Virus record (IMG/VR): IMGVR_UViG_3300024344_000001
DNA: 64,000 nucleotides
Source of the DNA: a virus
Lineage: Duplodnaviria > Heunggongvirae > Uroviricota > Caudoviricetes
Strand: one strand, 5' to 3'
Under the pieces are notes generated by a model. It saw nothing but the letters and a program-made list of their open reading frames with translations. It was not told where the DNA came from and made no database searches. Position numbers and translations under genes: made by a program. Positions 28,537-53,492 of the stretch are shown here, one piece after another; position 1 is the first letter of the stretch; each line of letters opens with the position of its first letter.

Positions 28537-28622
28537 TACATGCTTTCAAAAGGGTTTAAGTTGTGTGTTTCACAACTCCATTATAGCACGCTTATTCAAA
28601 ATTTCAAGGGAAAACCGCGAAG

Positions 28623-28695
28623 ATTTCCAAAATACCCGACGTGGAATCGAACCACGGTCTCCAGGGTCAGAGCCTAGCGTAATAGACCATTATAC
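28623..28695 (-). tRNA. tRNA-Gln (anticodon CUG)
   Basis: Cloverleaf folded by eye: acceptor 7 bp, T-arm cgugg-UUCGAUU-ccacg, anticodon loop CUCUGAC. Confidence 0.65.
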
Positions 28696-28823
28696 GACCG
28701 GGTAATAAAATGTAAGTAGGTTGTGCTACTACGCCAAATGCTTACAGGTAAGGCACACCTGCATGTGCCCCACAGTGCCTTTCTTCCCGGGAGGCGACTT
28801 TTAATCTACCACGACTTCTAAAG

Positions 28824-28894
28824 TACCCCTTGATGGAATCGAACCACCTTCTACTCGTTCAAAGCGAGTTATAATACCAATATACCAAAAGGGC
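28824..28894 (-). tRNA. tRNA-Gln (anticodon UUG), tentative
   Basis: T-loop signature ggaatcgaacc; anticodon stem actcg/cgagt with loop codon CAA. Confidence 0.5.
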
Positions 28895-28932
28895 GTGTTG
28901 TCAGACATTACCAATATGTTAATGGGTAATAT

Positions 28933-29163
28933 TTAGTCCTTTTTCAGTCTATCAAAGACCTCATCCATTGTGTAGATATGATTCATTTTTACATCTGCCA
29001 GACTCATATAGAAAGAGTGATATTCCCCCAAAGATATTTGTCTTTCATGGTCTGGTTGACGAAACCACCACCATATACATGAAACGTAGTAGTAAGGTTT
29101 CCATCGCAACCACCGATACATTCGTATCGGTAAGATTTGATTTTGATACCTATCATCTTTCAT
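28933..29163 (-). CDS. hypothetical protein
   Basis: ORF between tRNA genes. Confidence 0.3.
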   Translation of the reverse strand: MKDDRYQNQILPIRMYRWLRWKPYYYVSCIWWWFRQPDHERQISLGEYHSFYMSLADVKMNHIYTMDEVFDRLKKD

Positions 29164-29183
29164 ATCATTCTCACGTTATGTAG

Positions 29184-29252
29184 AGGTCACACGAGGAATC
29201 GAACCCCTTTGACTGAGTTGCAATCAGACTGCTCTCCATCTGCTCTGCGACC
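29184..29252 (-). tRNA. tRNA, isotype unresolved (possibly Cys GCA)
   Basis: Acceptor ggtcaca/tgcgacc; T-loop aatcgaa. Confidence 0.4.
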
Positions 29253-29325
29253 TTATTCGTGAACCAAATCATTCTCTCTCACTTTCTAAACTTTCTTTCC
29301 ACGTTTCACGACACACCAATACAAG

Positions 29326-29415
29326 CGGAAGCATAGGGATTCGAACCCTAAAACCGACGTTCCCGCCGATTTACAAAGTTAGCAACTTTGCCCCTCATCC
29401 AACCGGATTACTTCC
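29326..29415 (-). tRNA. tRNA-Ser (GCU), type II
   Basis: T-arm taggg-attcgaa-cccta; long variable arm; anticodon stem caaag/ctttg, loop codon AGC. Confidence 0.6.
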
Positions 29416-29590
29416 GTATCACATGATTTATATACCCATATGAGCGGCCTTATGTTGTTCCATCGCCCGTTGAGCATTCTCTTCTGCGATATGTGCAGAA
29501 ATTACCTCAAAGGAACTTTCGTATTTACACGGACAAAATTCTGCTATGAAAATTGTTTGCATCACGAGAAATCTCCGATTTTGATGTAAG

Positions 29591-29690
29591 TGGACCCGAC
29601 AGGAGTCGAACCTGTATGAGATTATGCAATCTCTGCTTCGTCAAGCATCCCCGGGAGCAGCTACTCTCCCAGTTCGTGTATACCACAAGA
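29591..29690 (-). tRNA. tRNA-like, long/atypical, unresolved
   Basis: T-arm acagg-agtcgaa-cctgt present; no clean 5' acceptor found by eye. Confidence 0.3.
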
Positions 29691-29765
29691 TTCTCCTAGA
29701 GAATCTTTATTCCACCACGGGACCATATTATACTATGTCCTAACTGTCATACAGTTGAACACAAG

Positions 29766-29848
29766 TAGCGGTGACAGGAGTCGAACCTGCATAGCCGAAG
29801 CCACATGTTCCTAAGACATGCGTGTATCCCTAATTCCACCACACCGCC
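29766..29848 (-). tRNA. tRNA-Leu (UAG), type II
   Basis: Acceptor agcggtg/caccgcc; variable hairpin; anticodon stem catgt/acatg, loop codon CTA. Confidence 0.6.
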
Positions 29849-29881
29849 ATAACGGGAGCAGATTTGTTCTCTGCTACCCGT

Positions 29882-29909
29882 ATTATACACCATTTACTCC
29901 GTTTGTCAA
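29882..29909 (-). promoter_or_regulatory. sigma70-like promoter (TTGACA-N16-TGTGTATAAT) upstream of a tRNA block
   Basis: rc: gttgacaa...gtgtataata. Confidence 0.55.
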
Positions 29910-30018
29910 CCAAAAAACGCATCTAATACGAAAGTTGATGCAAAAACAGCGATAATCACCCAAATCCACGCTTTACTTTCCTCACCCTCTTGGGCGGTTT
30001 TTCTGGGATAGTCTTGCA

Positions 30019-31201: not shown

Positions 31202-32782
31202 TTACTCATTGCTCTCAGTGACTTCCTTTACCTTTACTTTTTGCTTTTGCATTTGCTGTAGCATACCAGCCATTACCGCTGGGTCAAGGCTTGCACCTTC
31301 GCCCATAACAAGCACTTCTGGTCCTACACCTTCAAGTTCAGGTAGGTTGTTAATAAGGTTGTCAAGAATATAGAATCCGATACCGCCGTAGGCAGAAATC
31401 TTCTCTCTAACAGCTTCCGCTTCACCCTTAGCTCTACGGGCTTCAGCCTGACCCTCATTCTCTTCAGCTTCAATCTTGATCTTAGATTCTGTAAGGCGAG
31501 CCTGTTCCTTAGCGGCAGTACGGGCCTCAACAGTATCCTTCTCTACTTCCGCAGCAAGCTTCTGTTCCTCAAAAGCTTTAATCTGCTGTTTAGCAAGTTC
31601 CTGGTCAGTCTGAGTGGTAAGTAGTTCCTTACCTTCAGGTGTGCTATCAAGTCCAATATCAGCGATACGAACAGCGATAACATCTACCTTAAACTCAGCA
31701 ATAGCTTCACGTAGTTGTTCAGTAGCCTCAGTTTCTACTGTAGAACGAGAATTCAGGTAATCTAGGGCACTGGTATGTTCAGCGTTATTTCTGAAGATAC
31801 TTCGTACTGCGGGTAGAATTACCTTTGTTTCCAAAGTATCAAACCCATCCTTATCTAGATCTACGTCTGGTTCACCAATTTCTGATACAAGGTGAGGGGC
31901 ATTATCCTGCCTTACGGTTACCTCAACCCTAATATCAACGGGAAACTTATAACCATCGACGGTCTTAACTCCAATGGAGTGGTCAACTGTAGGGCGGTCA
32001 CTAGCACCCAACTGGGATGTACTGGTATAAGAGTAAACTCTCTTAGTAGTATTTACCTTAATCGGGTAGTAAGCCTCAGTATTGATATAATGAGTACCTG
32101 GGCCATACGGTGTATCCCAAATACCTACCTGACCAACTGGAACTAACTTACTAGTCGATACCGCTTCACCTTCGGCCTTAGTGCCGTGGTGAGACTGAAT
32201 AACCACACACTCATTCTGCTTGATAATAAGTGCTGGTTTTACCTCAACGGTGAATAGGTTAGGATTGTATGCGACAGTTTTACCAGCGGGAATAACTGTA
32301 ATCTGTGGACCTGCAAAACCTTTTGCTCCAAAGGTAGCACCATCCAACATGTCTTCTACAGAATCCCATTCATCAGCATAAGCCTGACCACTAAGTGCCT
32401 TACCGTCCTTAGCAGTTACCAATCCCATACTACCAGCAGGAATAGGCATGTTTGGGTTTTGTGATAGTTCATACTGCCACGGCCATAGACCAAAGTTCCA
32501 ACCTGGTCCCAATGTCGCAGCTTGCGGACCACGTTCGCCGTTAAAGGCTACTACGTGACCGCCTTGTAGTGGAGACCCAAACTTTGTTGAGACAATTCCA
32601 CGAGAGTCACCATCCACATAAAGGGCGGTCTGCCAACCGGTAAGTACGATAAACAAACCCGTAAACAAAAAGAGACCAAATCTACCAGGGCCAAGAATCT
32701 GTTTTGTAATGGGTACGAATGGTAGAACCAACGTAACCAATGCTAGAAACATAAAAGCCGCAAAAAACACTGTTGACATCAA
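31202..32782 (-). CDS. SPFH/band-7 (flotillin/prohibitin-like) membrane protein with coiled-coil tail
   Basis: N-terminal TM segments; SPFH core; long Ala/Glu/Lys/Gln-rich heptad C-terminus. Confidence 0.65.
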   Translation of the reverse strand: MMSTVFFAAFMFLALVTLVLPFVPITKQILGPGRFGLFLFTGLFIVLTGWQTALYVDGDSRGIVSTKFGSPLQGGHVVAFNGERGPQAATLGPGWNFGLWPWQYELSQNPNMPIPAGSMGLVTAKDGKALSGQAYADEWDSVEDMLDGATFGAKGFAGPQITVIPAGKTVAYNPNLFTVEVKPALIIKQNECVVIQSHHGTKAEGEAVSTSKLVPVGQVGIWDTPYGPGTHYINTEAYYPIKVNTTKRVYSYTSTSQLGASDRPTVDHSIGVKTVDGYKFPVDIRVEVTVRQDNAPHLVSEIGEPDVDLDKDGFDTLETKVILPAVRSIFRNNAEHTSALDYLNSRSTVETEATEQLREAIAEFKVDVIAVRIADIGLDSTPEGKELLTTQTDQELAKQQIKAFEEQKLAAEVEKDTVEARTAAKEQARLTESKIKIEAEENEGQAEARRAKGEAEAVREKISAYGGIGFYILDNLINNLPELEGVGPEVLVMGEGASLDPAVMAGMLQQMQKQKVKVKEVTESNE

Positions 32783-32838: not shown

Positions 32839-33951
32839 TCAACCCTTAATGTTGATAATTGGTTTAACGTGATGGGTAACGTCTACCAATTCCTTCTGTT
32901 GTTCCATGACAGCAAAAATATCCTTGTAGGCGAACGGCGATTCGTCCAGGGTATCCTTATCTACCTTAGCACGAACACCCTCCATAGTCTTCTTGAAATC
33001 CTGAACATCTAATTCTCTCTTAGCGGCCTTACGTCCTAGGACGCGACCAGCACCGTGAGAAGAAGAGTGCATGGATTCTTCGTTCCCTTTACCTACTACT
33101 ATGAACGAACCGTCTCTCATGTTACCAGGAATTACGCCTTTCATCCCTTTTTCAGCATGAGTGGCACCCTTACGGTGAATCCAGCGGCCATCTTTCAATT
33201 CCGCATGATTATGATTACGGTTGATAAACGAATTCGAATCTGAAGACACACCTCCCAATCTACGGTCTAATACCGCTACTACAGCTTCAATCATAGCTGC
33301 ACGGTTAGCCAAGGCATAAGTAAGAGCATAGTTTAGGTCCACGATGTAATCCTGACCCAACTGTGAGTCTACATCAAGAGCACCATCTAGCCCCTCACCC
33401 TTAGCGATTTTCATATACTCACCCGCAATACCATGACCTAGGCCACGAGATCCTGAGTGAATAACGATCCAAATTTTATCATGCTCGTCATAGCCGATTT
33501 CAATGAAGTGGTTTCCACCACCCAATGTACCTAACTGTCTACGGGCATTACGGCGACCGTACATTTCTTCAGCAATCGCCGTATGTGGAAGTTTTTCGTC
33601 TACCCACACCTTGTCTTCCTTATGAGTATTAAAACCAACTGGAATATCACGGTAGATGTTCTGAAATAGGTAGTCGGCTCTTGCTTCAACGTCAGTTCTA
33701 TCGGCGTCTGTGCATATGCTGCTCATCCCGCAGCCTATATCGAAACCAACCCAAGCGGGGTATATTACCTCTCTTGTTGCGAATACTGAGCCAATAGGTG
33801 CATCATATCCAGTATGGGCGTCAGGCATCATAGCCCCTTGCTCAACAAATGGAGAATCCATACAATTATCAAACTGCTCCATAGCGGAGTCTTCAACAAC
33901 TTCTGCAAATATCTTTGATGGTTTCATTTCTCTCTTCTCCCTCTTATTCAC
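32839..33951 (-). CDS. rtcB: RtcB RNA 3'-phosphate/5'-OH ligase
   Basis: Motifs MPDAHTGYD, NRNHNHAE, HSSSHGAGR. Confidence 0.85.
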   Translation of the reverse strand: MNKREKREMKPSKIFAEVVEDSAMEQFDNCMDSPFVEQGAMMPDAHTGYDAPIGSVFATREVIYPAWVGFDIGCGMSSICTDADRTDVEARADYLFQNIYRDIPVGFNTHKEDKVWVDEKLPHTAIAEEMYGRRNARRQLGTLGGGNHFIEIGYDEHDKIWIVIHSGSRGLGHGIAGEYMKIAKGEGLDGALDVDSQLGQDYIVDLNYALTYALANRAAMIEAVVAVLDRRLGGVSSDSNSFINRNHNHAELKDGRWIHRKGATHAEKGMKGVIPGNMRDGSFIVVGKGNEESMHSSSHGAGRVLGRKAAKRELDVQDFKKTMEGVRAKVDKDTLDESPFAYKDIFAVMEQQKELVDVTHHVKPIINIKG

Positions 33952-33957
33952 GACATG

Positions 33958-34506: not shown

Positions 34507-34531
34507 TGGAGACGACGGGATTCGAACCCGT
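34507..34531 (-). pseudogene. tRNA 3'-fragment (acceptor 3' strand + T-arm) with no matching 5' half
   Basis: ggagacg + acggg-attcgaa-cccgt; no complementary 5' acceptor found within 150 nt. Confidence 0.3.
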
Positions 34532-34847
34532 GTGTTGATTAGCAATCATAATAACTTCTACGTGTGTAGGTATGTGCCACATACCAGAGGATAGTCTTCG
34601 CCAGGCGGGTCTATCATACCTTGTCCCTCATGGGCACGGCGATTAAGTCGCTACTCTCGTCTGTTATCCGATATATTCTACGATTGGGTAAAAAGGCTCG
34701 CAGAGAAGCCCGCAGCTTACGCTGCCATTAGTACAGATGTTTTTGCATCTATTGTTCGATCTATTTTTTAACTGGCCCTTAGATCAACCAGTACACGCGA
34801 TCATTACTCTCTACTATCAGTCGATTCCAAAACGTCCCCGTTATTTT

Positions 34848-35219
34848 CTAATGATCCAAATCTTTCACTACCGAAGGTAGTTCTTCTATCCTCTTAGCTT
34901 TATCATCTATTACCAAGTCAAAATGCGGTTTCTCGTCTCCACACTTAAGGTTATGGAACTTACAACCCCACTCACTTAGTTGTTTTAAGGTGTGAGTCTT
35001 GTAGTCTTTCCCACTCACTGACCCACGGGCAGTCCAGTATGTGATATGCCATCCCTCGTCATACAGCTTATTGATCTTAGCTATGTTATCGAAGTGAGGC
35101 TCAGACAGGTCATAACGGCGTTCGCCGCTGTAGAAGCAGATAGTCTCGTCAATATCTACGAAAGCCCGTTTCTGCTGACCTTCTGGGGTTAGTCTGTTGG
35201 CTATATGAAAGTCGGTCAT
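34848..35219 (-). CDS. HAD-superfamily phosphatase (DxDxT)
   Basis: Motif I VDIDETICF. Confidence 0.5.
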   Translation of the reverse strand: MTDFHIANRLTPEGQQKRAFVDIDETICFYSGERRYDLSEPHFDNIAKINKLYDEGWHITYWTARGSVSGKDYKTHTLKQLSEWGCKFHNLKCGDEKPHFDLVIDDKAKRIEELPSVVKDLDH

Positions 35220-35744: not shown

Positions 35745-35784
35745 TACACGTAAAAAAAACCCGCCCCAAAAGGACGGGCTAAGG

Positions 35785-35874
35785 GCAGCTAAACGAGAAT
35801 CGAACCCGCATAACCCCGTTAGGGGTCTCCTGATTCACAGTCAGGCCCAGCAAACCAATATCTGGCTTTAACTG
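35785..35874 (-). tRNA. tRNA, type-II-like; anticodon loop reads GUG
   Basis: Acceptor cagctaa/ttaactg; extra hairpin cccc-gtta-gggg; anticodon stem cctga/tcagg, loop codon CAC; D stem ccag/ctgg. Confidence 0.4.
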
Positions 35875-35944: not shown

Positions 35945-35964
35945 TATACCAACGGTTCATTAAA

Positions 35965-36035
35965 TGCGGCATGACTGAATCGAACAGACATTTTTTGTGT
36001 GGAAAACAAAAGTAATACCATTATACCAATGCCGC
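35965..36035 (-). tRNA. tRNA-Gly (UCC)
   Basis: Acceptor gcggcat/atgccgc perfect; T-arm gactg-aatcgaa-cagac; anticodon stem tttgt/acaaa, loop codon GGA. Confidence 0.55.
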
Positions 36036-36048
36036 AAAAGAGAGAATG

Positions 36049-37446: not shown

Positions 37447-37533
37447 TCAGAGAGAAGGGAATCGAACCCTCATACAGTCTTACGACACTCCTGCTTCCAA
37501 GGCAGGCGGCATACCAATATTGCCCACTCTCTG
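37447..37533 (-). tRNA. tRNA with Pro (UGG) anticodon arm and ~18-nt extra segment between T and anticodon arms
   Basis: Acceptor cagagag/ctctctg perfect; D stem ggca/tgcc; anticodon stem cctgc/gcagg, loop codon CCA; extra acagtcttacgacact. Confidence 0.45.
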
Positions 37534-38130: not shown

Positions 38131-38147
38131 GTTGCGTTATCCTAAAG

Positions 38148-38218
38148 AGGTTCCACAGGGAATCGAACCCTGATCTCCTGATTACAAAACAGGAATAATA
38201 CCATTATACCACAGAACC
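38148..38218 (-). tRNA. tRNA-Thr (UGU), tentative
   Basis: T-arm caggg-aatcgaa-ccctg; loop codon ACA. Confidence 0.5.
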
Positions 38219-41581: not shown

Positions 41582-41582
41582 G

Positions 41583-42090: not shown

Positions 42091-42501
42091 CTAGTGGCGT
42101 TCATTGTAGTGATGCTTAAAGTGGCAGTTTGCACACAATACATCACACTTATCTATTTCTTCTAAGATTCGCTTCTTCCCCCAACCACTTTGCATCGCTG
42201 ATGAAATTGCTAGATCTTTTTGGGATGGATCTCTATGATGAAACTGAAGACATGCTGGATGATTTTCTGGGCAGTTTTTACATTTTAACCCAGACTTTAA
42301 GTTCTCAAACCAGTCTTTCATTTCAATTTTACGTTTTGCCGCATTCTGAATATAAACTGATTTAGTTGCCTCATAATGCTTTTTTGTACCAGCAGCCTGA
42401 CAAGTCTTGCAATAATATTGGAAACCGTCCTTCTTAGTCTTATTTTTGTTGAATTGAGAAGTGAGCTTCACTTCTTTACATCTTGAACACTGCTTTGGCA
42501 T
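42091..42501 (-). CDS. HNH homing endonuclease
   Basis: CSRC..CKTC; CKNCPENHPACLQFHHRDP...CANCH. Confidence 0.7.
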   Translation of the reverse strand: MPKQCSRCKEVKLTSQFNKNKTKKDGFQYYCKTCQAAGTKKHYEATKSVYIQNAAKRKIEMKDWFENLKSGLKCKNCPENHPACLQFHHRDPSQKDLAISSAMQSGWGKKRILEEIDKCDVLCANCHFKHHYNERH

Positions 42502-42510
42502 AGTGTGTGG

Positions 42511-42576
42511 GCCGCTGTAAGGGATTTGAACCCCTATCTCCTCGTGTACCAGGGATCTTGTTTAGACGAACAGCGG
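42511..42576 (-). tRNA. tRNA, isotype unresolved
   Basis: Acceptor ccgctgt/acagcgg perfect; T-arm aaggg-atttgaa-cccct. Confidence 0.4.
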
Positions 42577-42602
42577 ATAATCGAGAAGTCAAAGACTTCG
42601 AG

Positions 42603-42695
42603 TGGCCGAGGCGGGAATCGAACCCACATCCCTGTTTCCAGGGGGTAGCTTATGAGACTACTAAGGAAAGCCATTATCCTCATCACGGCGGCATT
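42603..42695 (-). tRNA. tRNA-like, long, unresolved
   Basis: T-arm gcggg-aatcgaa-cccac; internal hairpins; end coordinate approximate. Confidence 0.3.
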
Positions 42696-42867: not shown

Positions 42868-43116
42868 TCAAGGGTTTACTGGGTATTTTTCATCAGATTC
42901 GATGAATCTTTTCGCCAAACCCACAACTTCCCTTTGTGACATTCCCGCAAACGGCCCCTTAATAAATATCTGAGTTAGAGAGTCGTTGTTCTTATATTTG
43001 TCTAGAATGAACTCTGCCCATTCTAAAGTTTTATCTGTTAGATCTGACATTATCTTTTCCAAGTGGGCGAGGTGGGACTCGAACCCACGTACTCTTCCGT
43101 GTAAAAGAAGCTCCAT
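42868..43116 (-). CDS. hypothetical protein
   Basis: ORF. Confidence 0.35.
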   Translation of the reverse strand: MELLLHGRVRGFESHLAHLEKIMSDLTDKTLEWAEFILDKYKNNDSLTQIFIKGPFAGMSQREVVGLAKRFIESDEKYPVNP

Positions 43117-43138
43117 AGCCGCTAGGATCTACACGCCC
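43064..43138 (-). tRNA. tRNA-Val (UAC), tentative
   Basis: T-arm gtggg-actcgaa-cccac; anticodon stem cttcc/agaag, loop codon GTA. Confidence 0.45.
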
Positions 43139-43163: not shown

Positions 43164-43238
43164 GTAGCTAATGCAGGAGTCGAACCTGTAAAGCACTGAC
43201 TTATGAAATCAGTTGAATAACCCTATTCGCCACTAGCT
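43164..43238 (-). tRNA. tRNA-Met/Ile (CAU)
   Basis: Acceptor agctaat/actagct; anticodon stem ctgac/atcag, loop codon ATG. Confidence 0.55.
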
Positions 43239-43265
43239 ATGTGAACAGCGTTAGCCGTTATGTGG

Positions 43266-43334
43266 TGCCGGGGGTAGGACTTGAACCTACAACCTCTCCT
43301 CGAAGGGGAGTGCTCTAATTGGAGCTACCCCGGC
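43266..43334 (-). tRNA. tRNA-Arg (UCG), tentative
   Basis: Acceptor gccgggg/ccccggc perfect; T-arm gtagg-acttgaa-cctac; loop codon CGA. Confidence 0.45.
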
Positions 43335-44165: not shown

Positions 44166-44170
44166 TGAAG

Positions 44171-44241
44171 TACCCTCACCAGGACTCGAACCCGGAATGT
44201 CACGTTAAGAGCGTGAGTGTTACCCGTTACACCATGAAGGC
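44171..44241 (-). tRNA. tRNA-Lys (CUU)
   Basis: Anticodon stem tcacg/cgtga perfect, loop codon AAG. Confidence 0.55.
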
Positions 44242-45605: not shown

Positions 45606-45610
45606 GAGAG

Positions 45611-45682
45611 TGCTCCAGCACGGAATCGAACCGAGATTTCTTCGTTGGCAACGAAACGTAATAGCCATTATACCACAAGAGC
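45611..45682 (-). tRNA. tRNA-Gly (GCC)
   Basis: Anticodon stem cttcg/cgaaa, loop codon GGC. Confidence 0.5.
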
Positions 45683-45689
45683 ATGTAAA

Positions 45690-45894: not shown

Positions 45895-46016
45895 ACTTCA
45901 TACTGTTTTATGGCGGTCGCTAAACCGCCCGCTAGTCAGAGGCTTTACCCGCTGTCCTCTGTATCTGCTCGTACCTATCGGGACTAGACGTTAGCACATC
46001 CTAGCTTAAACATGAG

Positions 46017-46085
46017 TGGACCTGTAGGTACTCGAAACCTAAAAACTTCCGTGCAAGGGAAGTTCCTACCCCTGTAGACAAGCCC
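46017..46085 (-). tRNA. tRNA-Ala (UGC), tentative
   Basis: T-arm taggt-actcgaa-accta; anticodon stem cttcc/ggaag perfect, loop codon GCA. Confidence 0.5.
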
Positions 46086-46248: not shown

Positions 46249-46320
46249 TTCATAGAGACGGGACTCGAACCCGACATTACTCTGATTTCTGTATGTTTCT
46301 TATAACTATTCTCTCATTCC
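46249..46320 (-). pseudogene. tRNA-like fragment (T-arm acggg-actcgaa-cccga) without a convincing 5' half
   Basis: No complementary acceptor found. Confidence 0.25.
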
Positions 46321-46607
46321 TATAGTCAACCAGTACTCGGTCTTAGCTCATGGTAGGCTGAGACTACACCTATCAGCGATAATCTTTAGTTACCGTACCA
46401 TCCTGTTTGCATACGTCTGAAGGTTTATTCTTACGACACTCCATATCACAATACGCGGAGACCCCATGTTGTGTTAATGACCTTAGTTTTGACTTGGCAA
46501 GCAGCAGCGGTTACGCTATCCTCTATATAAACTCTACACTACTTATCGCGAAATATTCGTGTAAAGTCCGGTAACATGCACCAAAACCCTAGCTTCTAAG
46601 TTTAGGT

Positions 46608-46800: not shown

Positions 46801-46890
46801 GTAGGAGTGCAGGGAATCGAACCCTGTTCTCGGATTTATCAGATCCTAAACCGCTTATAAAACGGCTGCCGCACCATTTGGCCTCACTCC
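46801..46890 (-). tRNA. tRNA, type-II length; anticodon loop reads UAU (or Ile GAU if the first hairpin is the anticodon arm)
   Basis: Acceptor aggagtg/cactccc; T-arm caggg-aatcgaa-ccctg; hairpin ggat-ttatcag-atcc; second stem accgc/acggc with loop ttataaa. Confidence 0.4.
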
Positions 46891-46904
46891 CGTCTCATGT
46901 ATTG

Positions 46905-49679: not shown

Positions 49680-49708
49680 GTATTTTTGTTGAAATTATTG
49701 TGTATAAT
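49680..49708 (+). promoter_or_regulatory. plus-strand promoter-like element (TGTGTATAAT)
   Basis: attgtgtataatat at 49698-49710. Confidence 0.35.
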
Positions 49709-49716
49709 ATACCAAG

Positions 49717-49799
49717 CGGAAGGTGGAGTAATCGAAACTCTGACGTGTTAACGCCCCCCGAATATTCCAAATTCGTTTGCCACCTTGGCGGCACCTTCC
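49717..49799 (-). tRNA. tRNA-Ser (GGA), type II
   Basis: Acceptor ggaaggt/accttcc perfect; T-arm ggagt-aatcgaa-actct; anticodon stem cgaat/attcg, loop codon TCC. Confidence 0.55.
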
Positions 49800-50430: not shown

Positions 50431-50501
50431 TACCCCGAGAAGGAATCGAACCTTCTTTTTCCGCTTATCAGACGGATGCCTTTCCATTAGACGACCGGGG
50501 T
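50431..50501 (-). tRNA. tRNA-Ile (GAU)
   Basis: T-arm gaagg-aatcgaa-ccttc perfect; anticodon stem tccgc/acgga, loop codon ATC. Confidence 0.6.
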
Positions 50502-51133: not shown

Positions 51134-51150
51134 CTTTTCCTCACGTAAAG

Positions 51151-51221
51151 TAACCCATACGAGAATCGAACTCGTCTCTCCTGACTGAGAATCAGGTATC
51201 CTGCCAATAGAAGAATGGGCT
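51151..51221 (-). tRNA. tRNA-Glu (CUC)
   Basis: T-arm acgag-aatcgaa-ctcgt perfect; anticodon stem cctga/tcagg perfect, loop codon GAG. Confidence 0.6.
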
Positions 51222-51376
51222 ATGTTGGGGCCGTTAAGTCTGCTAAGGATATCCTAATCACAGACCTCAGTAGGATTTCAACAGGTCTCACCTACCTTAA
51301 CACGGGACAACCAGCCCGCCCTGTTATATCTTGAGTATGGATACTGTCTTGACTGCCGCCGCAAGTACCCGCATAC

Positions 51377-51604
51377 CTAGACTTTTTTCTTCCACGTTGG
51401 AAAACCTTTGTTTGAGTGAAGATCTGCCAGTCTATTAGTACCAAAACAGCCTTCACATACATCAAACTTTCGATCAATGGGAATAAGAGTGCCAGCAGGT
51501 ATTCTTAACGTAACCTTTACCCAATTATTAGCAATATACAACCCATTTTCAGGAGATATCTTGCCACATCCGTCACATCCGTCACATTGTTTAACATCAG
51601 CCAT
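51377..51604 (-). CDS. small Cys-rich protein
   Basis: CDGCDGCG...CEGC. Confidence 0.35.
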   Translation of the reverse strand: MADVKQCDGCDGCGKISPENGLYIANNWVKVTLRIPAGTLIPIDRKFDVCEGCFGTNRLADLHSNKGFPTWKKKV

Positions 51605-51613
51605 GTTTGTTTC

Positions 51614-52333
51614 CTAAGTATAACGCCTTGGCGTAAAACCACCCTGAGTACATCCTGGAATAGGAAGCATCAAGTCTCCACCTTGGTCACACTCGTCACC
51701 AAAGTAATTCTGTACTTCAACATACCAGTTTTTATCATTTGAAATTACCTTACTAGGCTCAATCAAAACATGACAACCACCGCGAGTCTCAAAGATAGTA
51801 GTAGCATAGCTACCCAGCAACCAATGCATAGACTTGCGAATGTTTACTAGCCTTTCCTCACGAGATATTTCCGCAGGAAAATCGATGTCAAAGTGTACGT
51901 GACATGTTCGACTCTTACACTTGTGGACTTGCCTATCCGCCCACCTGGCTGGGTTAAACCTATAGTTAGGATCGCCCCATCCCTTTTGCATGTGGTCAAC
52001 TAGATCCTTAACTGTAGCAGAAGTCGCCGCTTTAGTATCACGAGGATTAGTTGTGATATAGACGACGAGTCCCTCGTCGTTAACTACTTGACCCTTTTTA
52101 GTCTTATAGCATCCAATAGGACATTCTAGCTGATGTAGTTTCTCTAACATTCTTTCCTTATTAGTAGTAAAACGGCGAATCTCCACCGTGTCACTAGAAC
52201 TTAGCTCAGGCATATACTTCTTGCGGGCCTGTAGAACAATGTAGAACGTTTCATGATCTTCATTGATCTCTGGAAGCCACGCAATGAAGTTTTGAAGTTC
52301 CATTGAGTCACGAATTATTTTGTGGTGGCTCAT
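51614..52333 (-). CDS. archaeo-eukaryotic primase (AEP)/PrimPol-like protein, tentative
   Basis: Motif I CHVHFDIDF (hhDhD); motif II TRGGCHVLIE (sGxGxH); motif III GDLMLPIPGCT (D..h.hPGs). Confidence 0.4.
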   Translation of the reverse strand: MSHHKIIRDSMELQNFIAWLPEINEDHETFYIVLQARKKYMPELSSSDTVEIRRFTTNKERMLEKLHQLECPIGCYKTKKGQVVNDEGLVVYITTNPRDTKAATSATVKDLVDHMQKGWGDPNYRFNPARWADRQVHKCKSRTCHVHFDIDFPAEISREERLVNIRKSMHWLLGSYATTIFETRGGCHVLIEPSKVISNDKNWYVEVQNYFGDECDQGGDLMLPIPGCTQGGFTPRRYT

Positions 52334-52520
52334 AATCTTCTCCTACTGCGATGAATTCATCCATCGTACAGAGTTCCTCGTCCCTATTTCCATTTCTTGT
52401 ACCAGCAACTAAAACCTGTAAGGTAGGATTACCATTGATATCATAAACGGTACAGTGCTCGCTTAAAATAGATACTTCAGTCAATTTATCGAACCATGTT
52501 CCATCAGAAATAAATTTCAC
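52308..52520 (-). CDS. hypothetical protein
   Basis: ORF. Confidence 0.3.
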   Translation of the reverse strand: MKFISDGTWFDKLTEVSILSEHCTVYDINGNPTLQVLVAGTRNGNRDEELCTMDEFIAVGEDYEPPQNNS

Positions 52521-52711
52521 GTTACGTTATCCCGATCTTTGATCGTAAGTACCCACCAAGGGAGTTGCACCCCGTGACTCTCCCCTCCTGTTTAACGTCG
52601 CTCGGTTAGAAGCCGAGTGGAGGAATGGCGGGCAAGTTTATTTAGCACGTCTATAATCCAAATGATAGTGTAGCTTACTATGACAGTTATGGCACAGTAC
52701 GTTACACTTCT

Positions 52712-52909
52712 TCATTTCCTATCGACGTATTCCTGATATTCACCGTGGACATACATTCCAGCTAAAGTTTTATTTTCTCTAGCCGCCCATTCTTCAGTAA
52801 GGTCTACTATAATATCTGAAAAAGTGTCTCCATAAAATGGGTGACCAGCAAACCACGCCAAACAGTCAGCGGCCTTTTCCGTTATCTCAATAGTTACCTT
52901 ATCCATCAC
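52712..52909 (-). CDS. hypothetical protein
   Basis: ORF. Confidence 0.35.
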   Translation of the reverse strand: MMDKVTIEITEKAADCLAWFAGHPFYGDTFSDIIVDLTEEWAARENKTLAGMYVHGEYQEYVDRK

Positions 52910-52927
52910 TTTTCTTCCTTAAAAGTA

Positions 52928-52997
52928 GCCCGTGAGGGAATCGAACCCAATCCCAGCCGAGTTTCGTAGACTCAGTGCCCCAATCCAGAGGACAGGC
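52928..52997 (-). tRNA. tRNA-like, unresolved
   Basis: gaggg-aatcgaa-ccc; acceptor agcccgt/acaggcc with wobbles; no clean anticodon arm. Confidence 0.3.
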
Positions 52998-53035
52998 CAA
53001 GTTATTCCCAGCGATTAGGCCAGGTTTTTCTATAG

Positions 53036-53107
53036 TGACACCACGGGGAGTTGAACCCACGTCCTCCAGGTTGAAAGCCTAGTATTCTACCAGTAAAATA
53101 TGGTGCC
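53036..53107 (-). tRNA. tRNA-Glu (UUC)
   Basis: Acceptor gacacca/tggtgcc; anticodon stem ccagg/cctag, loop codon GAA. Confidence 0.55.
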
Positions 53108-53121
53108 ATGTTTTTTTTGAG

Positions 53122-53193
53122 AGGGACGGGTGAGACTCGAACTCACGCACTGTTGCTTAACGGGCAACTGCTCTGCCGCTGAGCTACCGACCC
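53122..53193 (-). tRNA. tRNA-Asn (GUU)-like, with C at position 33 by eye
   Basis: T-arm gtgag-actcgaa-ctcac perfect; anticodon stem gttgc/gcaac, loop ttaacgg. Confidence 0.45.
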
Positions 53194-53492
53194 TAACATT
53201 CGTCATCTTCAACTAATCTAAAATCAGCAGTATGACGCATTGTTTCTATTTGTTGAGTCTCCATGTTAATCAAAACACAGTGACCCACTTGGGGACTATG
53301 CTCGCACAGGAATGTGAATAGCAACGGCCTATCCGTATTAGTCCTACCGTAGCCAAGAGGACCGTAATATGTAATACGATTCACTTCAGATAGATTATCC
53401 CAATACTCAAGATTGAAATTATCTGGCTCAAAAACTACAGTATCACCCATTTTGAATGGACAAGTCATGTCAATCTTCCTTAAAAGATACAA
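53193..53492 (-). CDS. hypothetical protein
   Basis: ORF. Confidence 0.4.
   Translation of the reverse strand: MYLLRKIDMTCPFKMGDTVVFEPDNFNLEYWDNLSEVNRITYYGPLGYGRTNTDRPLLFTFLCEHSPQVGHCVLINMETQQIETMRHTADFRLVEDDEC

What the first reader, a model, noticed from the sequence alone, without database searches (positions are those of the whole stretch)
28600..53200. A ~25-kb tRNA island with 35 or more tRNA genes interleaved with antisense homing-endonuclease genes, tRNA fragments and duplicates
A T-loop signature (ggaatcgaacc on the plus strand) recurs about 39 times, and most copies can be folded into minus-strand tRNAs covering most amino acids (Gln x2, Ser x3, Leu, Pro, Thr x2, Gly x2, Lys x2, Glu x2, Asp, Asn, Ile, Met, Val, Arg, Ala and more). 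Five HNH ORFs are interspersed (27849-28373, 36049-36689, 40898-41581, 42091-42501, 44384-44899), along with a zinc-ribbon/DUF559 endonuclease ORF (49825-50430); three of these sit on the opposite strand with their own TGTGTATAAT promoters, so they are transcribed antisense to tRNAs. Orphan tRNA 3' fragments lie at 34507-34531, 36945-36985 and 46249-46320. Two tRNA-Ser paralogs flank HNH genes. This pattern fits endonuclease-driven remodelling of the tRNA repertoire.
Basis: partly seen in the sequence, partly recalled or inferred. Interest (0 to 1): 0.55.

Follow-up and report, generated by a model that had tools for sequence, protein, structure and literature searches.

The report
Phage tRNA island with amber-gated gene
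This is the tRNA gene island of an uncultured large phage, dotted with selfish homing-endonuclease genes (a known arrangement), but it also holds an amber-suppressor tRNA sitting next to a tRNA-end hydrolase gene that carries in-frame amber stop codons, a pairing conserved across many jumbo phages and apparently undescribed.

Summary
The island is real but somewhat over-counted. ARAGORN finds 29 tRNAs plus a tmRNA, all on the minus strand. Rfam and relaxed settings raise this to about 34, and four more degenerate tRNA-like elements exist. All five HNH ORFs are supported. The 'DUF559' call is not. One 'orphan fragment' is the 3' end of the tmRNA. The three plus-strand endonuclease genes do carry their own GTGTATAAT promoter motif, and most endonuclease ORFs abut or overlap a tRNA gene. 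This matches known phage biology (T4 SegB, jumbo-phage tRNA arrays). 'Remodelling' could not be tested, because the nearest relatives share only about 60-69% protein identity.

- The tRNA(CUA) at 39801-39873 lies 44 nt upstream of an HD-PTH2 gene (38938-39756) with two in-frame TAGs. In 54 of 66 related loci, including cultured phages XacN1 and RsoM2USA, the homolog has ATG, 1-9 codons, then TAG, followed by a purine. GAP32 has an internal TAG. A tRNA(CUA) is usually nearby.
- Five tRNAs (His, Pro, Asn, Ile, Met) have long variable arms but identity elements matching their anticodons. This recurs in related phages.
- Two Leu tRNAs lack the long arm.

The parts
28632..28704 (-). tRNA-Gln(CUG)
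   Evidence: ARAGORN; Rfam 51.6 bits
28823..28894 (-). tRNA-Gln(UUG)
   Evidence: ARAGORN; Rfam 57.9 bits
29183..29252 (-). tRNA-Cys(GCA), low confidence, U73
   Evidence: Found only with relaxed ARAGORN
29325..29415 (-). tRNA-Ser(GCU), 91 nt, G73
   Evidence: ARAGORN; Rfam 28.3 bits, just under the gathering score
29590..29658 (-). Degenerate tRNA-like element with a 6-nt anticodon loop; its T arm is identical to that of tRNA-Leu(UAG)
   Evidence: T-loop motif; ARAGORN at -ps80; sequence
29765..29848 (-). tRNA-Leu(UAG), 84 nt
   Evidence: ARAGORN; Rfam 50.6 bits
30019..30798 (-). vWA-domain protein
   Evidence: Pfam VWA_2 24.5 bits; phrog_7371 8.5e-47
31202..32782 (-). SPFH/Band-7 membrane protein
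   Evidence: Pfam Band_7 4e-12
32839..33951 (-). RtcB RNA ligase (tRNA repair)
   Evidence: Pfam RtcB 299 bits; blastn hits to phage RtcB genes
34507..34839 (-). tmRNA, tag peptide AKTSVLMAA
   Evidence: ARAGORN; Rfam RF00023 76.1 bits against gathering score 47
34848..35219 (-). HAD-like phosphatase (polynucleotide-kinase-phosphatase-like)
   Evidence: phrog_1238 1e-22 and phrog_415 1.6e-6; no Pfam hit
35783..35874 (-). tRNA-His(GUG) with long variable arm, 92 nt, G-1:C73
   Evidence: ARAGORN; Rfam tRNA-Sec 40 bits, below threshold; G-1 read from sequence; long-arm His also in L039 and L098
35937..35945 (+). GTGTATAAT promoter motif for the antisense HNH gene; tRNA-Gly lies between it and the ATG
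35964..36036 (-). tRNA-Gly(UCC)
   Evidence: ARAGORN; Rfam 60.7 bits
36048..36689 (+). HNH homing endonuclease (phrog_2255 type), antisense to the island
   Evidence: PHROG 2.9e-31; HH..N..H motif; 44% identical homolog beside Gly(UCC) in L001
37124..37210 (+). Truncated remnant of a zinc-finger endonuclease gene (MKVKCLTCEQ...)
   Evidence: Read from sequence; compare the N-terminus of 49825-50430
37447..37533 (-). tRNA-Pro(UGG) with long variable arm, 87 nt, C1-G72, A73
   Evidence: ARAGORN; Rfam 53.4 bits
37534..37607 (-). tRNA-Pro(UGG), normal size
   Evidence: ARAGORN; Rfam 57.6 bits
37612..37681 (-). tRNA-like gene with a 6-nt anticodon loop (CUUCC-UUCGGU-GGAAG)
   Evidence: Rfam tRNA 38.5 bits; ARAGORN -ps80 'tRNA-???'
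38147..38218 (-). tRNA-Thr(UGU)
   Evidence: ARAGORN; Rfam 58 bits
38938..39756 (-). HD-PTH2 gene with two in-frame TAG codons (39750-39748, codon 3; 39237-39235, at the domain junction). The HD part resembles the HD domain of a tRNA nucleotidyltransferase. The C-terminal part is a PTH2 peptidyl-tRNA hydrolase.
   Evidence: Translations; sequence; Pfam PTH2 29.4 bits; continuous homologs; conserved N-terminal TAG; fold
39801..39873 (-). Amber suppressor tRNA(CUA), U73, 44 nt upstream of the HD-PTH2 start codon
   Evidence: ARAGORN; best Rfam tRNA score in the window, 65.2 bits
39892..39968 (-). tRNA-Leu(UAA), short (77 nt, no long variable arm)
   Evidence: ARAGORN; Rfam 46.5 bits
40259..40336 (-). 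tRNA-Leu(CAA), short (78 nt)
   Evidence: ARAGORN; Rfam 37.7 bits
40757..40830 (-). tRNA-Phe(GAA)
   Evidence: ARAGORN; Rfam 37.8 bits
40849..40857 (+). GTGTATAAT promoter motif for the antisense endonuclease gene
40898..41581 (+). Zinc-finger plus HNH_3-like (H-N-N) endonuclease, antisense; its stop codon abuts tRNA-Asp
   Evidence: PHROG HNH 4e-19; Pfam HNH_3 16.8 bits, below threshold
41582..41655 (-). tRNA-Asp(GUC)
   Evidence: ARAGORN; Rfam 30.9 bits
41900..41989 (-). tRNA-Asn(GUU) with long variable arm, 90 nt, G73
   Evidence: ARAGORN; Rfam 54.4 bits; homologs and covariation
42028..42100 (-). tRNA-Trp(CCA)
   Evidence: ARAGORN; Rfam 44.9 bits
42091..42501 (-). HNH homing endonuclease (phrog_2255 type); its 3' end overlaps tRNA-Trp by 10 nt
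   Evidence: PHROG 2e-32; motif
42508..42576 (-). Degenerate tRNA-like element with good acceptor and T arms and an encoded CCA; 7 nt upstream of the HNH gene
42602..42690 (-). tRNA-Met(CAU)-like with long variable arm, 89 nt, low confidence (two acceptor-stem mismatches)
   Evidence: Found only with relaxed ARAGORN
43063..43138 (-). tRNA-Val(UAC)
   Evidence: ARAGORN; Rfam 37.6 bits; 87% identical to the L001 Val tRNA
43164..43238 (-). tRNA-Met(CAU)
   Evidence: ARAGORN; Rfam 25.5 bits, below threshold
43263..43334 (-). tRNA-Arg(UCG), CCA encoded
   Evidence: ARAGORN; Rfam 49 bits
43353..43380 (-). Perfect sigma-70 promoter (TTGACA-16-TATAAT) ahead of the Arg-Met-Val tRNA run
44170..44241 (-). 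tRNA-Lys(CUU)
   Evidence: ARAGORN; Rfam 50.2 bits
44340..44412 (-). tRNA-Lys(UUU)
   Evidence: ARAGORN; Rfam 49.2 bits
44384..44899 (-). HNH homing endonuclease (phrog_2255 type); its last 9 codons lie inside tRNA-Lys(UUU); GTGTATAAT motif at 44916-44924
   Evidence: PHROG 7.6e-32; motif; promoter
45610..45682 (-). tRNA-Gly(GCC)
   Evidence: ARAGORN; Rfam 54.3 bits
45690..45761 (-). tRNA-Thr(GGU)
   Evidence: ARAGORN; Rfam 47.7 bits
45813..45883 (-). Degenerate tRNA-like element (T-loop motif only)
46016..46085 (-). tRNA-Ala(UGC)
   Evidence: ARAGORN only; no Rfam hit
46251..46336 (-).
46801..46891 (-). tRNA-Ile(UAU) with long variable arm, 91 nt, A73
   Evidence: ARAGORN; Rfam 46.7 bits; long Ile(UAU) also in L069 and L081
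46906..47024 (-). Two perfect sigma-70 promoters (46906-46933 and 46997-47024) ahead of tRNA-Ile(UAU)
49700..49708 (+). GTGTATAAT promoter motif for the antisense endonuclease gene; tRNA-Ser(GGA) lies between it and the ATG
49716..49799 (-). tRNA-Ser(GGA), low confidence; ARAGORN draws an 8-bp acceptor stem and 4-bp T stem; G73
   Evidence: Relaxed ARAGORN; compare the 8/4 phage tRNA-Ser in PMC5389517
49825..50430 (+). Zinc-finger endonuclease of homing type, antisense; its stop codon abuts tRNA-Ile(GAU)
   Evidence: PHROGs 559, 3339, 9084; no DUF559
50431..50501 (-). tRNA-Ile(GAU)
   Evidence: ARAGORN; Rfam 57.6 bits
51150..51221 (-). tRNA-Glu(CUC)
   Evidence: ARAGORN; Rfam 46.4 bits
52925..52998 (-). 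tRNA-Arg(ACG), low confidence
   Evidence: Found only with relaxed ARAGORN
53035..53107 (-). tRNA-Glu(UUC)
   Evidence: ARAGORN; Rfam 46.8 bits
53121..53193 (-). tRNA-Asn(GUU), normal size
   Evidence: ARAGORN; Rfam 61.4 bits
53722..53750 (-). Perfect sigma-70 promoter at the upstream edge of the island
27849..28373 (-). HNH endonuclease just downstream of the last tRNA
   Evidence: Pfam HNH 1e-10; PHROG 3.5e-25
53785..55245 (-). GmrSD_N (DUF262) plus HNH nuclease flanking the island; GTGTATAAT motif at 55244-55252
   Evidence: Pfam; motif

Best explanation
The region is the translation-support island of an uncultured large phage; its longest contig is about 180 kb. Strong host-type promoters drive runs of minus-strand tRNA genes covering 19 amino acids (Cys only by a weak call; no Tyr was found), plus a tmRNA.

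Interleaved with the tRNAs are enzymes that act on tRNA: an RtcB ligase, an HD-PTH2 hydrolase and a HAD-like phosphatase. There are also at least six freestanding homing-endonuclease genes. These endonuclease genes are selfish passengers. They sit at the edges of tRNA genes, which are conserved sequences that make good homing targets and that the element must not disrupt. Most carry their own promoter, which lacks a -35 box and reads GTGTATAAT. Their likely effect is biased inheritance of the neighbouring tRNA genes in mixed infections, as shown for T4 SegB. That step is inferred here, not shown.

Inside the island is a small amber-suppression circuit. The tRNA(CUA) gene lies 44 nt upstream of a gene that starts ATG-TTG-TAG. 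It then continues in frame through an HD domain resembling that of tRNA nucleotidyltransferases, crosses a second TAG, and ends in a PTH2 peptidyl-tRNA hydrolase domain. I infer that the phage tRNA(CUA) decodes these TAGs, so the tRNA-end hydrolase is made only when, and in proportion as, the suppressor is active.

The conserved anatomy is shown by comparative genomics. Decoding, the amino acid inserted and the purpose of the circuit are inferred. Possible purposes are feedback control of the suppressor, or cleaning up the peptidyl-tRNAs and stalled ribosomes that readthrough creates; the latter would fit the linked tmRNA.

The five long-arm tRNAs are most likely cognate His, Pro, Asn, Ile and Met tRNAs with an added variable-arm hairpin. 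What the hairpin is for is unknown.
For: Island and phage origin:
- tRNA and tmRNA calls come from two independent predictors.
- Perfect TTGACA-N16/17-TATAAT promoters lie on the tRNA strand.
- Phage identity is supported by UvsX-like recombinase, Pol III alpha-like polymerase, dNMP kinase and exonuclease PHROG hits. Homologs of the HD gene occur in jumbo phages and IMG/VR contigs of 110-450 kb. The cluster of the exact protein has a longest contig of 179,771 bp.

Endonucleases:
- HMM hits and catalytic motifs.
- Paralogy among three of them, and homologs inside the tRNA islands of nine other contigs, including a syntenic antisense copy beside Gly(UCC) in L001.
- ORF ends lie 0-12 nt from, or overlap, tRNA genes (coordinates).
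- GTGTATAAT without a -35 box lies upstream of six nuclease genes.

Amber circuit:
- In-frame TAGs in the window.
- The PTH2 half scores above the Pfam cut-off, and its first strand lies upstream of any possible start codon.
- Ten fused homologs are continuous across the junction.
- In 54 of 66 distinct loci the nearest in-frame stop upstream of the HD domain is TAG (TGA 8, TAA 4). An ATG lies 1-10 codons before it in 52 of the 54. The next base is A in 38, G in 14, C in 2 and T in 0. Binomial p is about 4e-18.
- Nine loci have no ATG, GTG or TTG between the TAG and the conserved domain, and the amino-acid sequence just after the TAG is conserved.
- Other homologs keep an amber codon at a different position (GAP32, L056).
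- A tRNA(CUA) lies within 3 kb in 17 of 26 amber-containing loci and 0 of 5 amber-less loci (Fisher p=0.012). It makes up 16 of the 54 tRNAs found within 3 kb of the gene.
- XacN1, RsoM2USA and a 635-kb phage have the same start.

Long-arm tRNAs:
- Discriminator and acceptor features fit the anticodon.
- The long tRNA-Asn cloverleaf covaries at 14 of 20 pairs across five lineages.
- 17 of 224 distinct tRNAs in loci not selected for this trait show it.
Against: - No experiment shows that TAG is read.
- In many homologs a conserved Met lies 5-13 codons after the TAG, so the short ATG...TAG stretch could be a leader mini-ORF with the real start downstream.
- The second TAG (domain junction) is unique to this phage and could be a recent nonsense mutation.
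- TAG is used as an ordinary stop elsewhere in the window: 13 of 70 long ORFs, with no excess of TAG junctions over TAA junctions.
- About 12 of 66 homologs have no amber codon, and 9 of 26 amber-containing loci show no tRNA(CUA) within 3 kb.
- The suppressor's amino-acid identity is unresolved; discriminator bases vary.
- Homing activity and any effect on the tRNA repertoire are untested.
- Five of the roughly 34 tRNA calls rest on relaxed thresholds.
Confidence: 0.72

Rival explanations
1. The short ATG-x-TAG stretch is only a leader mini-ORF that ends at a real stop. The HD protein starts at a downstream start codon. The tRNA(CUA) lies nearby for unrelated reasons.
For: Many homologs have a nearly invariant Met 5-13 codons after the TAG, which gene callers use as the start. 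Annotators of XacN1 did the same.
Against: - The stop is TAG in 54 of 66 loci, and a purine follows it in 52 of 54. A plain leader ORF needs neither.
- Nine loci, including this window, have no ATG, GTG or TTG before the conserved HG..V helix, which holds the first metal-binding His.
- The peptide sequence between the TAG and the Met is conserved within clades.
- GAP32, L056 and this window have amber codons deep inside the gene.
- Amber presence tracks tRNA(CUA) proximity.
Confidence: 0.15
2. The phage uses a recoded genetic code in which TAG is a sense codon throughout (code 15). The HD gene is just one of many such genes.
For: Phages with TAG recoding and Sup-CUA tRNAs are well known (PMC13037316; Borges et al. 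2022, from my own knowledge). The late structural genes, where recoding tends to concentrate, are not in this window.
Against: - TAG ends 13 of 70 ORFs of 100 codons or more, a normal share.
- Same-frame junctions across TAG (5 of 32) are no more frequent than across TAA (9 of 62).
- The four other TAG junctions look like separate genes.
- The XacN1 authors found nothing beyond its 18 amber stops.
- HD and PTH2 genes in relatives rarely or never end in TAG.
Confidence: 0.08
3. The long-variable-arm tRNAs are Ser-, Leu- or Tyr-type tRNAs with mutated anticodons that mistranslate Asn, His, Pro, Ile and Met codons, like allo-tRNAs.
For: SerRS recognises a long variable arm together with G73, and the long tRNA-Asn has G73 (PMC5389517). 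Each anticodon is one base away from a Ser, Leu or Tyr anticodon.
Against: - Every one carries the discriminator and acceptor features of the amino acid its anticodon names: His has G-1:C73; Pro has C1-G72 and A73; Met and Ile have A73; Asn has G73.
- The acceptor stems do not resemble the island's own tRNA-Ser (GGAAG...).
- The structure is the canonical 7/5, not 8/4 or 9/3.
Confidence: 0.1
4. The region is a bacterial tRNA array or an integrated element rather than a lytic phage genome.
For: Long tRNA arrays exist in bacteria (PMC8421152, PMC5966550). No capsid or tail gene was identified in the window.
Against: - Nearly all genes are co-directional and tightly packed, with phage-type replication and recombination genes.
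- Relatives are IMG/VR viral contigs and cultured jumbo phages.
- The contig is about 180 kb and recurs identically in three datasets.
Confidence: 0.03

Closest known systems
T4 tRNA gene region with the SegB homing endonuclease (PMC2330249); from my own knowledge, also the HNH endonucleases in the T5 tRNA region
   Same: A freestanding endonuclease gene is embedded among phage tRNA genes. It is expected to cut endonuclease-free relatives nearby and drag the flanking tRNA genes along.
   Different: - The enzymes here are HNH and zinc-finger types, not GIY-YIG.
- There are at least six copies, half of them antisense, and they share a promoter motif.
- No cleavage or inheritance data exist.
Jumbo-phage tRNA arrays, e.g. 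Xanthomonas phage XacN1 (56 tRNA genes including two Sup-CUA; PMC5852040)
   Same: A large tRNA complement covers nearly all amino acids and includes CUA suppressor tRNAs in a standard-code genome. XacN1 also has the same HD-PTH2 gene (ORF364).
   Different: The XacN1 authors found no target for their suppressors. Here the target is evident, and re-reading XacN1 shows ATG-AAG-TAG with a good ribosome-binding site 7 codons upstream of the annotated start. In XacN1 the suppressor genes lie in the terminal repeats, not beside the gene.
Stop-codon recoding in phages (code 15; PMC13037316, PMC10607447; Borges et al. 2022 from my own knowledge)
   Same: A phage-encoded tRNA(CUA) licenses translation of phage genes that contain in-frame TAG.
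   Different: Known cases recode many, mostly late, genes. Here TAG remains a normal stop, and a single conserved gene family carries one or two amber codons, mostly at codons 3-10.
Synthetic amber-gated circuits (suppressor-tRNA feed-forward loop, PMC7969014)
   Same: An early in-frame amber codon makes output depend on a suppressor tRNA.
   Different: Those circuits are engineered. This would be a natural, evolutionarily conserved version whose output is itself a tRNA-directed enzyme.
HD domain of class II tRNA nucleotidyltransferases (Aquifex enzyme, PDB 3WFO/3WFR; from my own knowledge, the phosphohydrolase activities of the E. coli CCA-adding enzyme HD domain, Yakunin 2004)
   Same: This is the best structural and profile match. 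The H, HD, H and D metal-ligand residues are invariant.
   Different: The phage protein has no nucleotidyltransferase head domain, so it is not a CCA-adding enzyme. It is instead fused or adjacent to PTH2.
allo-tRNAs and 8/4 phage tRNA-Ser/His (Mukai et al., PMC5389517); nov-tRNAs of nematodes (cited there)
   Same: These are tRNAs with long variable arms and non-Ser/Leu/Tyr anticodons. An 8/4-looking tRNA-Ser(GGA) is present here.
   Different: The five long-arm tRNAs here are canonical 7/5 and carry cognate identity elements. They recur together with short-arm tRNA-Leu in phage islands.

Membership tests
Phage tRNA gene island | Many tRNA genes called by independent predictors, clustered and co-oriented | tested here: met
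   29 by ARAGORN and 24+5 by Rfam, all on the minus strand within 24.6 kb
Phage tRNA gene island | Phage genomic context | tested here: met
   PHROG replication and recombination hits; relatives are viral contigs and jumbo phages
tmRNA | Covariance-model score above threshold, plus a tag reading frame | tested here: met
   RF00023 76.1 bits against 47; tag AKTSVLMAA
HNH homing endonuclease | HNH catalytic motif | tested here: met
   Pfam HNH for 27849-28373. PHROG HNH families for all five. HH..N..H is visible in three, and an H-N-N variant in 40898-41581.
HNH homing endonuclease | Freestanding gene beside a conserved target gene | tested here: met
   ORF ends lie 0-12 nt from, or overlap, tRNA genes
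HNH homing endonuclease | Presence/absence polymorphism among close relatives | tested here: inconclusive
   Only 100% identical copies or relatives at <=69% protein identity were found
HNH homing endonuclease | Site-specific cleavage and biased inheritance | not testable with these tools
   Needs biochemistry and co-infection experiments
DUF559 / Vsr-like endonuclease (49825-50430) | Match to the family profile | tested here: not met
   No Pfam hit for the C-terminal 119 residues at E<=5
Amber suppressor tRNA | Canonical cloverleaf with a CUA anticodon | tested here: met
   ARAGORN; Rfam 65.2 bits, the best in the window
Amber suppressor tRNA | In-frame TAG in a conserved gene that needs readthrough | tested here: met
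   HD-PTH2 gene, two TAGs; conserved in 54 of 66 loci
Amber suppressor tRNA | Decoding of UAG in vivo, and which amino acid is inserted | not testable with these tools
   Sequence comparison gives no consistent identity
Genome-wide TAG recoding (code 15) | TAG avoided as a stop, with many genes broken by TAG | tested here: not met
   Normal TAG stop usage and no junction excess in this window. Late genes were not available.
PTH2 peptidyl-tRNA hydrolase | Pfam PF01981 above the curated cut-off | tested here: met
   29.4 bits against 23 for residues after the second TAG
HD phosphohydrolase superfamily | H...HD...H...D metal ligands and the all-helical fold | tested here: met
Class II tRNA nucleotidyltransferase (CCA-adding enzyme) | Nucleotidyltransferase head domain | tested here: not met
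   The protein is only 170-250 aa. The match covers chain residues 282-376 of the Aquifex enzyme only.
allo-tRNA (8/4 or 9/3) | Acceptor stem of 8-9 bp with a T stem of 3-4 bp | tested here: not met
   The His, Pro, Asn and Ile long-arm tRNAs fold as 7/5, and the weak long Met is drawn 7/5 with two acceptor mismatches. Only the weak Ser(GGA) call is drawn as 8/4.
RtcB RNA ligase | Full-length Pfam RtcB match | tested here: met
   299 bits, profile positions 1-426

The most novel reading that the evidence does not exclude
Jumbo phages carry a natural amber-gated circuit. Their own tRNA(CUA) licenses translation of a conserved tRNA 3'-end hydrolase (an HD domain of tRNA-nucleotidyltransferase type, fused or adjacent to PTH2) through an amber codon placed at codons 3-10. 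This would tie production of a tRNA-recycling or tRNA-deacylating enzyme to suppressor activity. It would also give the long-unexplained Sup-CUA tRNAs of standard-code jumbo phages (XacN1, GAP32, RsoM2USA) their first identified target. A second, independent novelty is a recurrent class of phage tRNAs with class-II-like long variable arms on His, Asn, Pro, Ile, Met and Thr identities, possibly to escape host tRNA-targeting defences.
Probability: 0.6. Interest if true: 0.8.

Novelty: new variant of a known kind. Interest (0 to 1): 0.66.

Why it matters

What matters is the hidden circuit. Suppressor tRNAs are common in jumbo phages that otherwise use the standard code, and their purpose has been an open question; the XacN1 study looked for targets and found none. 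A conserved amber codon at the very start of one gene family, genetically linked to the suppressor and present in cultured phages, makes that question directly testable with reporters, deletions and proteomics. It also suggests a natural counterpart of the amber-gated switches used in synthetic biology.

The finding also flags a systematic annotation error: these genes are called truncated or fragmented.

The long-arm tRNAs, if functional, would broaden what a bacterial translation system will accept. They may also bear on phage evasion of tRNA-cleaving defences.

Tried and rejected
- Megablast of the whole island against GenBank phages gave no match. A distant blastn of 30000-34000 hit only RtcB genes.
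- A search for relatives with the SPFH protein found nothing.
- Searches for close relatives, to compare endonuclease presence/absence, gave only identical copies or relatives at <=69% identity. The 'remodelling' test therefore failed for lack of material.
- Genome-wide TAG recoding was rejected for this window.
- Four other same-frame TAG junctions (50921, 51614, 53493, 56531) look like separate genes: each has its own start, and one pair is tandem paralogs.
- TAG is not enriched as the terminal stop of HD or PTH2 genes.
- DUF559 for 49825-50430 is not supported.
- 36945-36985 as a tRNA fragment was rejected.
- A PDB sequence search with the fused-protein profile gave only noise. The HD-only profile then hit the Aquifex tRNA nucleotidyltransferase.
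- The suppressor's amino-acid identity could not be inferred from discriminator bases or from similarity to sister tRNAs.
- An initiator-like tRNA(CUA) was considered and rejected: it has a G1-C72 pair and no GGG/CCC run in the anticodon stem (sequence).
- blastn of the long tRNA-Asn against GenBank phages was uninformative.
- Literature searches for long-variable-arm phage tRNAs, and for suppressor tRNA with PTH2 or amber-gated phage genes, found no prior description. The library does not cover most subscription journals.

Full report
**What the window is.** Nearly all genes lie on the minus strand and GC content is about 42%. The long ORFs include a Pol III alpha-like polymerase, DnaB helicase, primase, a UvsX-like recombinase, ribonucleotide reductase, PhoH, dNMP kinase and an exonuclease. 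Megablast against GenBank phages finds nothing. Exact-protein look-ups recover the same DNA, 100% identical, from three independent datasets: ENA ERZ27251151, JGI 3300011013 and Logan SRR6056610. The cluster of one island protein has a longest contig of 179,771 bp. Relatives of that protein sit in IMG/VR contigs of 110-450 kb and in cultured jumbo phages such as GAP32, XacN1, RsoM2USA, CBB and pT24. I conclude that this is an uncultured large phage.

**Checking the observation: tRNA genes.** ARAGORN finds 29 tRNAs and one tmRNA between 28632 and 53193, all on the minus strand. Rfam finds 24 tRNAs above the gathering score, and the tmRNA at 76 bits. In E-value mode it finds five more tRNA matches below the gathering score. 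One tRNA-like gene, 37612-37681, was missed by ARAGORN. Relaxed ARAGORN adds Cys(GCA), a long Met(CAU), Ser(GGA) and Arg(ACG). Four further places carry a T-arm and acceptor-like stem but have aberrant anticodon arms: 29590, 42508, 45813 and 46251. The T-loop 11-mer with up to one mismatch occurs 25 times in the island on the plus strand, against 0.9 expected in the whole window. The island is therefore real and far beyond chance, but '35 or more tRNAs' is generous. The count is 29-30 firm, about 34 with weak calls, and about 38 tRNA-shaped elements plus the tmRNA.

**Checking the observation: 'orphan fragments'.** The 'fragment' at 34507-34531 is the 3' end of the tmRNA. The one at 36945-36985 is not tRNA-like. 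The one at 46249-46320 is a degenerate tRNA-like element.

**Checking the observation: endonuclease genes.** Pfam supports HNH only for 27849-28373. PHROG profiles call all five HNH endonucleases.
- Three of them (36048-36689, 42091-42501, 44384-44899) are 34-39% identical paralogs with a clear DFHH...C.NCH...H motif.
- 40898-41581 combines zinc fingers with an H-N-N variant.
- 49825-50430 shares the zinc-finger N-terminus and hits 'homing endonuclease' PHROGs, but shows no DUF559 signal in Pfam.
- A LAGLIDADG gene (13326-14096) and a GmrSD_N+HNH gene (53785-55245) lie outside the stated range.
- A 28-codon remnant resembling the start of the zinc-finger gene lies at 37124-37210.

**How the endonuclease genes sit.**
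- The ATG of 36048-36689 is 12 nt from tRNA-Gly(UCC).
- The stops of 40898-41581 and 49825-50430 abut tRNA-Asp and tRNA-Ile(GAU) with no gap.
- 42091-42501 overlaps tRNA-Trp by 10 nt.
- The last nine codons of 44384-44899 are encoded by the tRNA-Lys(UUU) gene itself.

**Promoters.** The motif GTGTATAAT occurs 23 times with up to one mismatch, against 6.4 expected. It falls into two classes.
- With a perfect TTGACA -35 box, it sits ahead of tRNA runs (53750, 47024, 43380, 29890).
- Without any -35 box, it sits directly ahead of six nuclease genes, among other genes. These include the three plus-strand genes.
In two of those plus-strand cases a whole minus-strand tRNA lies between promoter and ATG, so the transcript is antisense to the tRNA.

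**Endonucleases in related islands.** Homologous HNH genes occur inside the tRNA islands of nine other contigs. In the closest viral-contig relative, L001, a 44% identical copy lies antisense beside tRNA-Gly(UCC) and the tmRNA, just as here. This is the pattern established for T4 SegB (PMC2330249). I could not test 'remodelling' because no relative closer than 69% protein identity exists in the collections searched.

**The suppressor tRNA and its neighbour gene.** ARAGORN's 'tRNA-Pyl' at 39801-39873 is a standard 73-nt tRNA with a CUA anticodon, and it has the best Rfam tRNA score in the window. The ORF downstream, called as 144 aa (39235-39669), ends in TAG and continues in the same frame into 98 codons. 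Those codons score above the Pfam cut-off for PTH2 peptidyl-tRNA hydrolase. No ATG, GTG or TTG lies between that TAG and the first conserved strand of the PTH2 domain. In ten relatives, including XacN1 ORF364, the two halves form one continuous ORF.

Reading upstream shows a second amber codon. A ribosome-binding site (AGGA, 8 nt spacing) precedes ATG-TTG-TAG at 39756-39748. The frame then runs on through THDEFLKHGELVW, which aligns with the first-histidine helix of the HD domain in more distant homologs. The 144-aa ORF as called would lack that histidine.

**Conservation of the amber codon.** I examined every distinct homologous locus held.
- In 54 of 66 loci the nearest in-frame stop upstream of the HD domain is TAG (TGA 8, TAA 4).
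- In 52 of the 54 an ATG lies 1-10 codons before it.
- The base after the TAG is A in 38, G in 14, C in 2 and T in none. From my own knowledge, a 3' purine is the context classically associated with efficient amber suppression in E. coli.
- Against a generous 30% expectation for TAG, the binomial p is about 4e-18.
- Nine loci have no canonical start between the TAG and the conserved domain.
- Within clades the residues just after the TAG are conserved as protein.
- Where the N-terminal amber is missing, an internal one can appear: GAP32 at about codon 46, where the annotation is fragmented into three ORFs and a Sup-tRNA is annotated 2.3 kb away; and L056, at a conserved Lys/Arg position.
- XacN1 (ATG-AAG-TAG, with an AGAGGA ribosome-binding site), RsoM2USA and the 635-kb phage LR745206 show the same start.

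**Linkage to tRNA(CUA).**
- A tRNA(CUA) lies within 3 kb of the gene in 15 of 28 loci with full flanks, and in ten of these CUA is the only tRNA type within 3 kb.
- CUA accounts for 16 of the 54 tRNAs in that range.
- It lies within 3 kb in 17 of 26 amber-containing loci and in 0 of 5 amber-less loci (p=0.012).
- A tmRNA lies within 5 kb in nine loci. In L103 it is immediately adjacent to the tRNA(CUA).

**Interpretation of the circuit.** Shown:
- the conserved anatomy (SD, ATG, a few codons, TAG followed by a purine, then the HD domain, with or without PTH2);
- its linkage to tRNA(CUA);
- the tRNA-end character of the enzyme.

Inferred:
- the phage tRNA(CUA) decodes the amber codon, so enzyme output follows suppressor activity;
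- the purpose is either feedback on the suppressor (deacylation or 3'-end trimming) or clearing the peptidyl-tRNAs and stalled ribosomes that readthrough of amber stops would create. The second option would explain the company of a tmRNA.

Genome-wide recoding is unlikely for this window. TAG ends 13 of 70 long ORFs. TAG junctions are no more common than TAA junctions. The four other TAG junctions are separate genes. The junction TAG is unique to this phage and could be a suppressed nonsense mutation. The codon-3 TAG is the conserved one.

The XacN1 paper states that no target could be found for its two Sup-CUA tRNAs, because it searched only downstream of amber stops. My literature searches found no description of this arrangement.

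**Unusual tRNA shapes.** Five tRNAs have a class-II-like variable-arm hairpin but anticodons of class I amino acids: His 92 nt, Pro 87 nt, Asn 90 nt, Ile(UAU) 91 nt and a weak Met 89 nt. Each carries the identity features expected from its anticodon:
- His has G-1 paired to C73.
- Pro has C1-G72 and A73.
- Asn has G73.
- Ile and Met have A73.

They are therefore better read as cognate tRNAs with an added arm than as Ser- or Leu-derived missense suppressors.

Normal-sized Pro, Asn and Met tRNAs are also present. A pattern search found long-arm tRNA-Asn in several other viral contigs. Across five lineages the cloverleaf shows compensatory changes at 14 of 20 pairs, while the arm sequences are unrelated hairpins. 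In loci chosen only for the HD gene, 17 of 224 distinct tRNAs are of this kind (His, Thr, Asn, Ile, Met, Gly, Glu, Lys, Val). Seven of 21 Leu tRNAs lack the long arm, as do Leu(UAA) and Leu(CAA) here. The weak Ser(GGA) call is drawn with an 8/4 acceptor/T-stem arrangement, which Mukai et al. reported for phage tRNA-Ser. The function of the extra arms is unknown. Evasion of tRNA-targeting host nucleases is a guess.

**Verdict.** As a tRNA island with homing endonucleases it is a new member of a known kind, and the remodelling idea remains untested. The region earns a higher score because it exposes a conserved amber-codon/suppressor-tRNA/tRNA-hydrolase module that appears to be undescribed and is testable in cultured phages. 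It also shows a recurrent set of non-canonical tRNA shapes.

Noticed in passing
window 35783-35874, 37447-37533, 41900-41989, 42602-42690, 46801-46891; also L001 12153-12244, L020, L023, L039, L069, L081, L098: tRNAs with class-II-like long variable arms but His, Pro, Asn, Met, Ile (elsewhere Thr, Gly, Glu, Lys, Val) anticodons and cognate identity elements. They recur across phage tRNA islands.
   Followed up: partly
window 39892-39968, 40259-40336; L001, L005, L020: tRNA-Leu genes of only 76-79 nt that lack the long variable arm expected of bacterial tRNA-Leu. Seven of 21 Leu tRNAs in related loci are like this.
   Followed up: partly
window 37612-37681, 29590-29658, 42508-42576; 'tRNA-???' calls in L005, L011, L023: tRNA-like genes with good acceptor and T arms but 6-nt anticodon loops; one has a UUCG-type hairpin and one an encoded CCA. 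They could be pseudogenes or non-decoding tRNA mimics.
   Followed up: partly
window 14088-14096, 35937-35945, 40849-40857, 44916-44924, 49700-49708, 55244-55252: A GTGTATAAT(A) promoter-like motif with no -35 box lies directly upstream of six nuclease or homing-endonuclease genes. The same motif paired with a perfect TTGACA -35 box drives tRNA runs.
   Followed up: partly
window 34507-34839; L001 8044-8341; L103 3124-3419: A phage-encoded tmRNA is conserved in the relatives. In L103 it lies immediately upstream of the tRNA(CUA) and the HD-PTH2 gene.
   Followed up: partly
L104 (GAP32 290461-291027), L033 (XacN1 ORF364), L106 (RsoM2USA_91): In cultured jumbo phages the HD gene is annotated as truncated, or in GAP32 as three fragments, because of the in-frame TAG.
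   Followed up: yes
window 13326-14096 and 53785-55245: A LAGLIDADG homing endonuclease with an HTH domain sits beside the PhoH gene. A GmrSD_N(DUF262)+HNH nuclease lies at the upstream edge of the island.
   Followed up: partly
window 56141-56962: Two tandem paralogous genes, each starting MSV... and sharing an FNDGD.CE motif, lie in the same frame separated by a TAG. No function is known.
   Followed up: no
window 30019-33951: A vWA protein, an SPFH/Band-7 membrane protein and the RtcB ligase lie together inside the tRNA island. L103 also has a Band_7 gene near its HD-PTH2 gene.
   Followed up: no
window 2192-3856 and 1544-2188: The Pol III alpha-like ORF covers only profile positions 246-620 of 1190. 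It is followed in the same frame, across a TAA, by a DnaQ-like exonuclease ORF, so the polymerase may be split or otherwise unusual.
   Followed up: no
window 17099-17983: An ORF with cytosine-5 DNA methyltransferase motifs (GGSPCQGFS, ENV) lies next to the ribonucleotide reductase genes. This was read by eye only.
   Followed up: no
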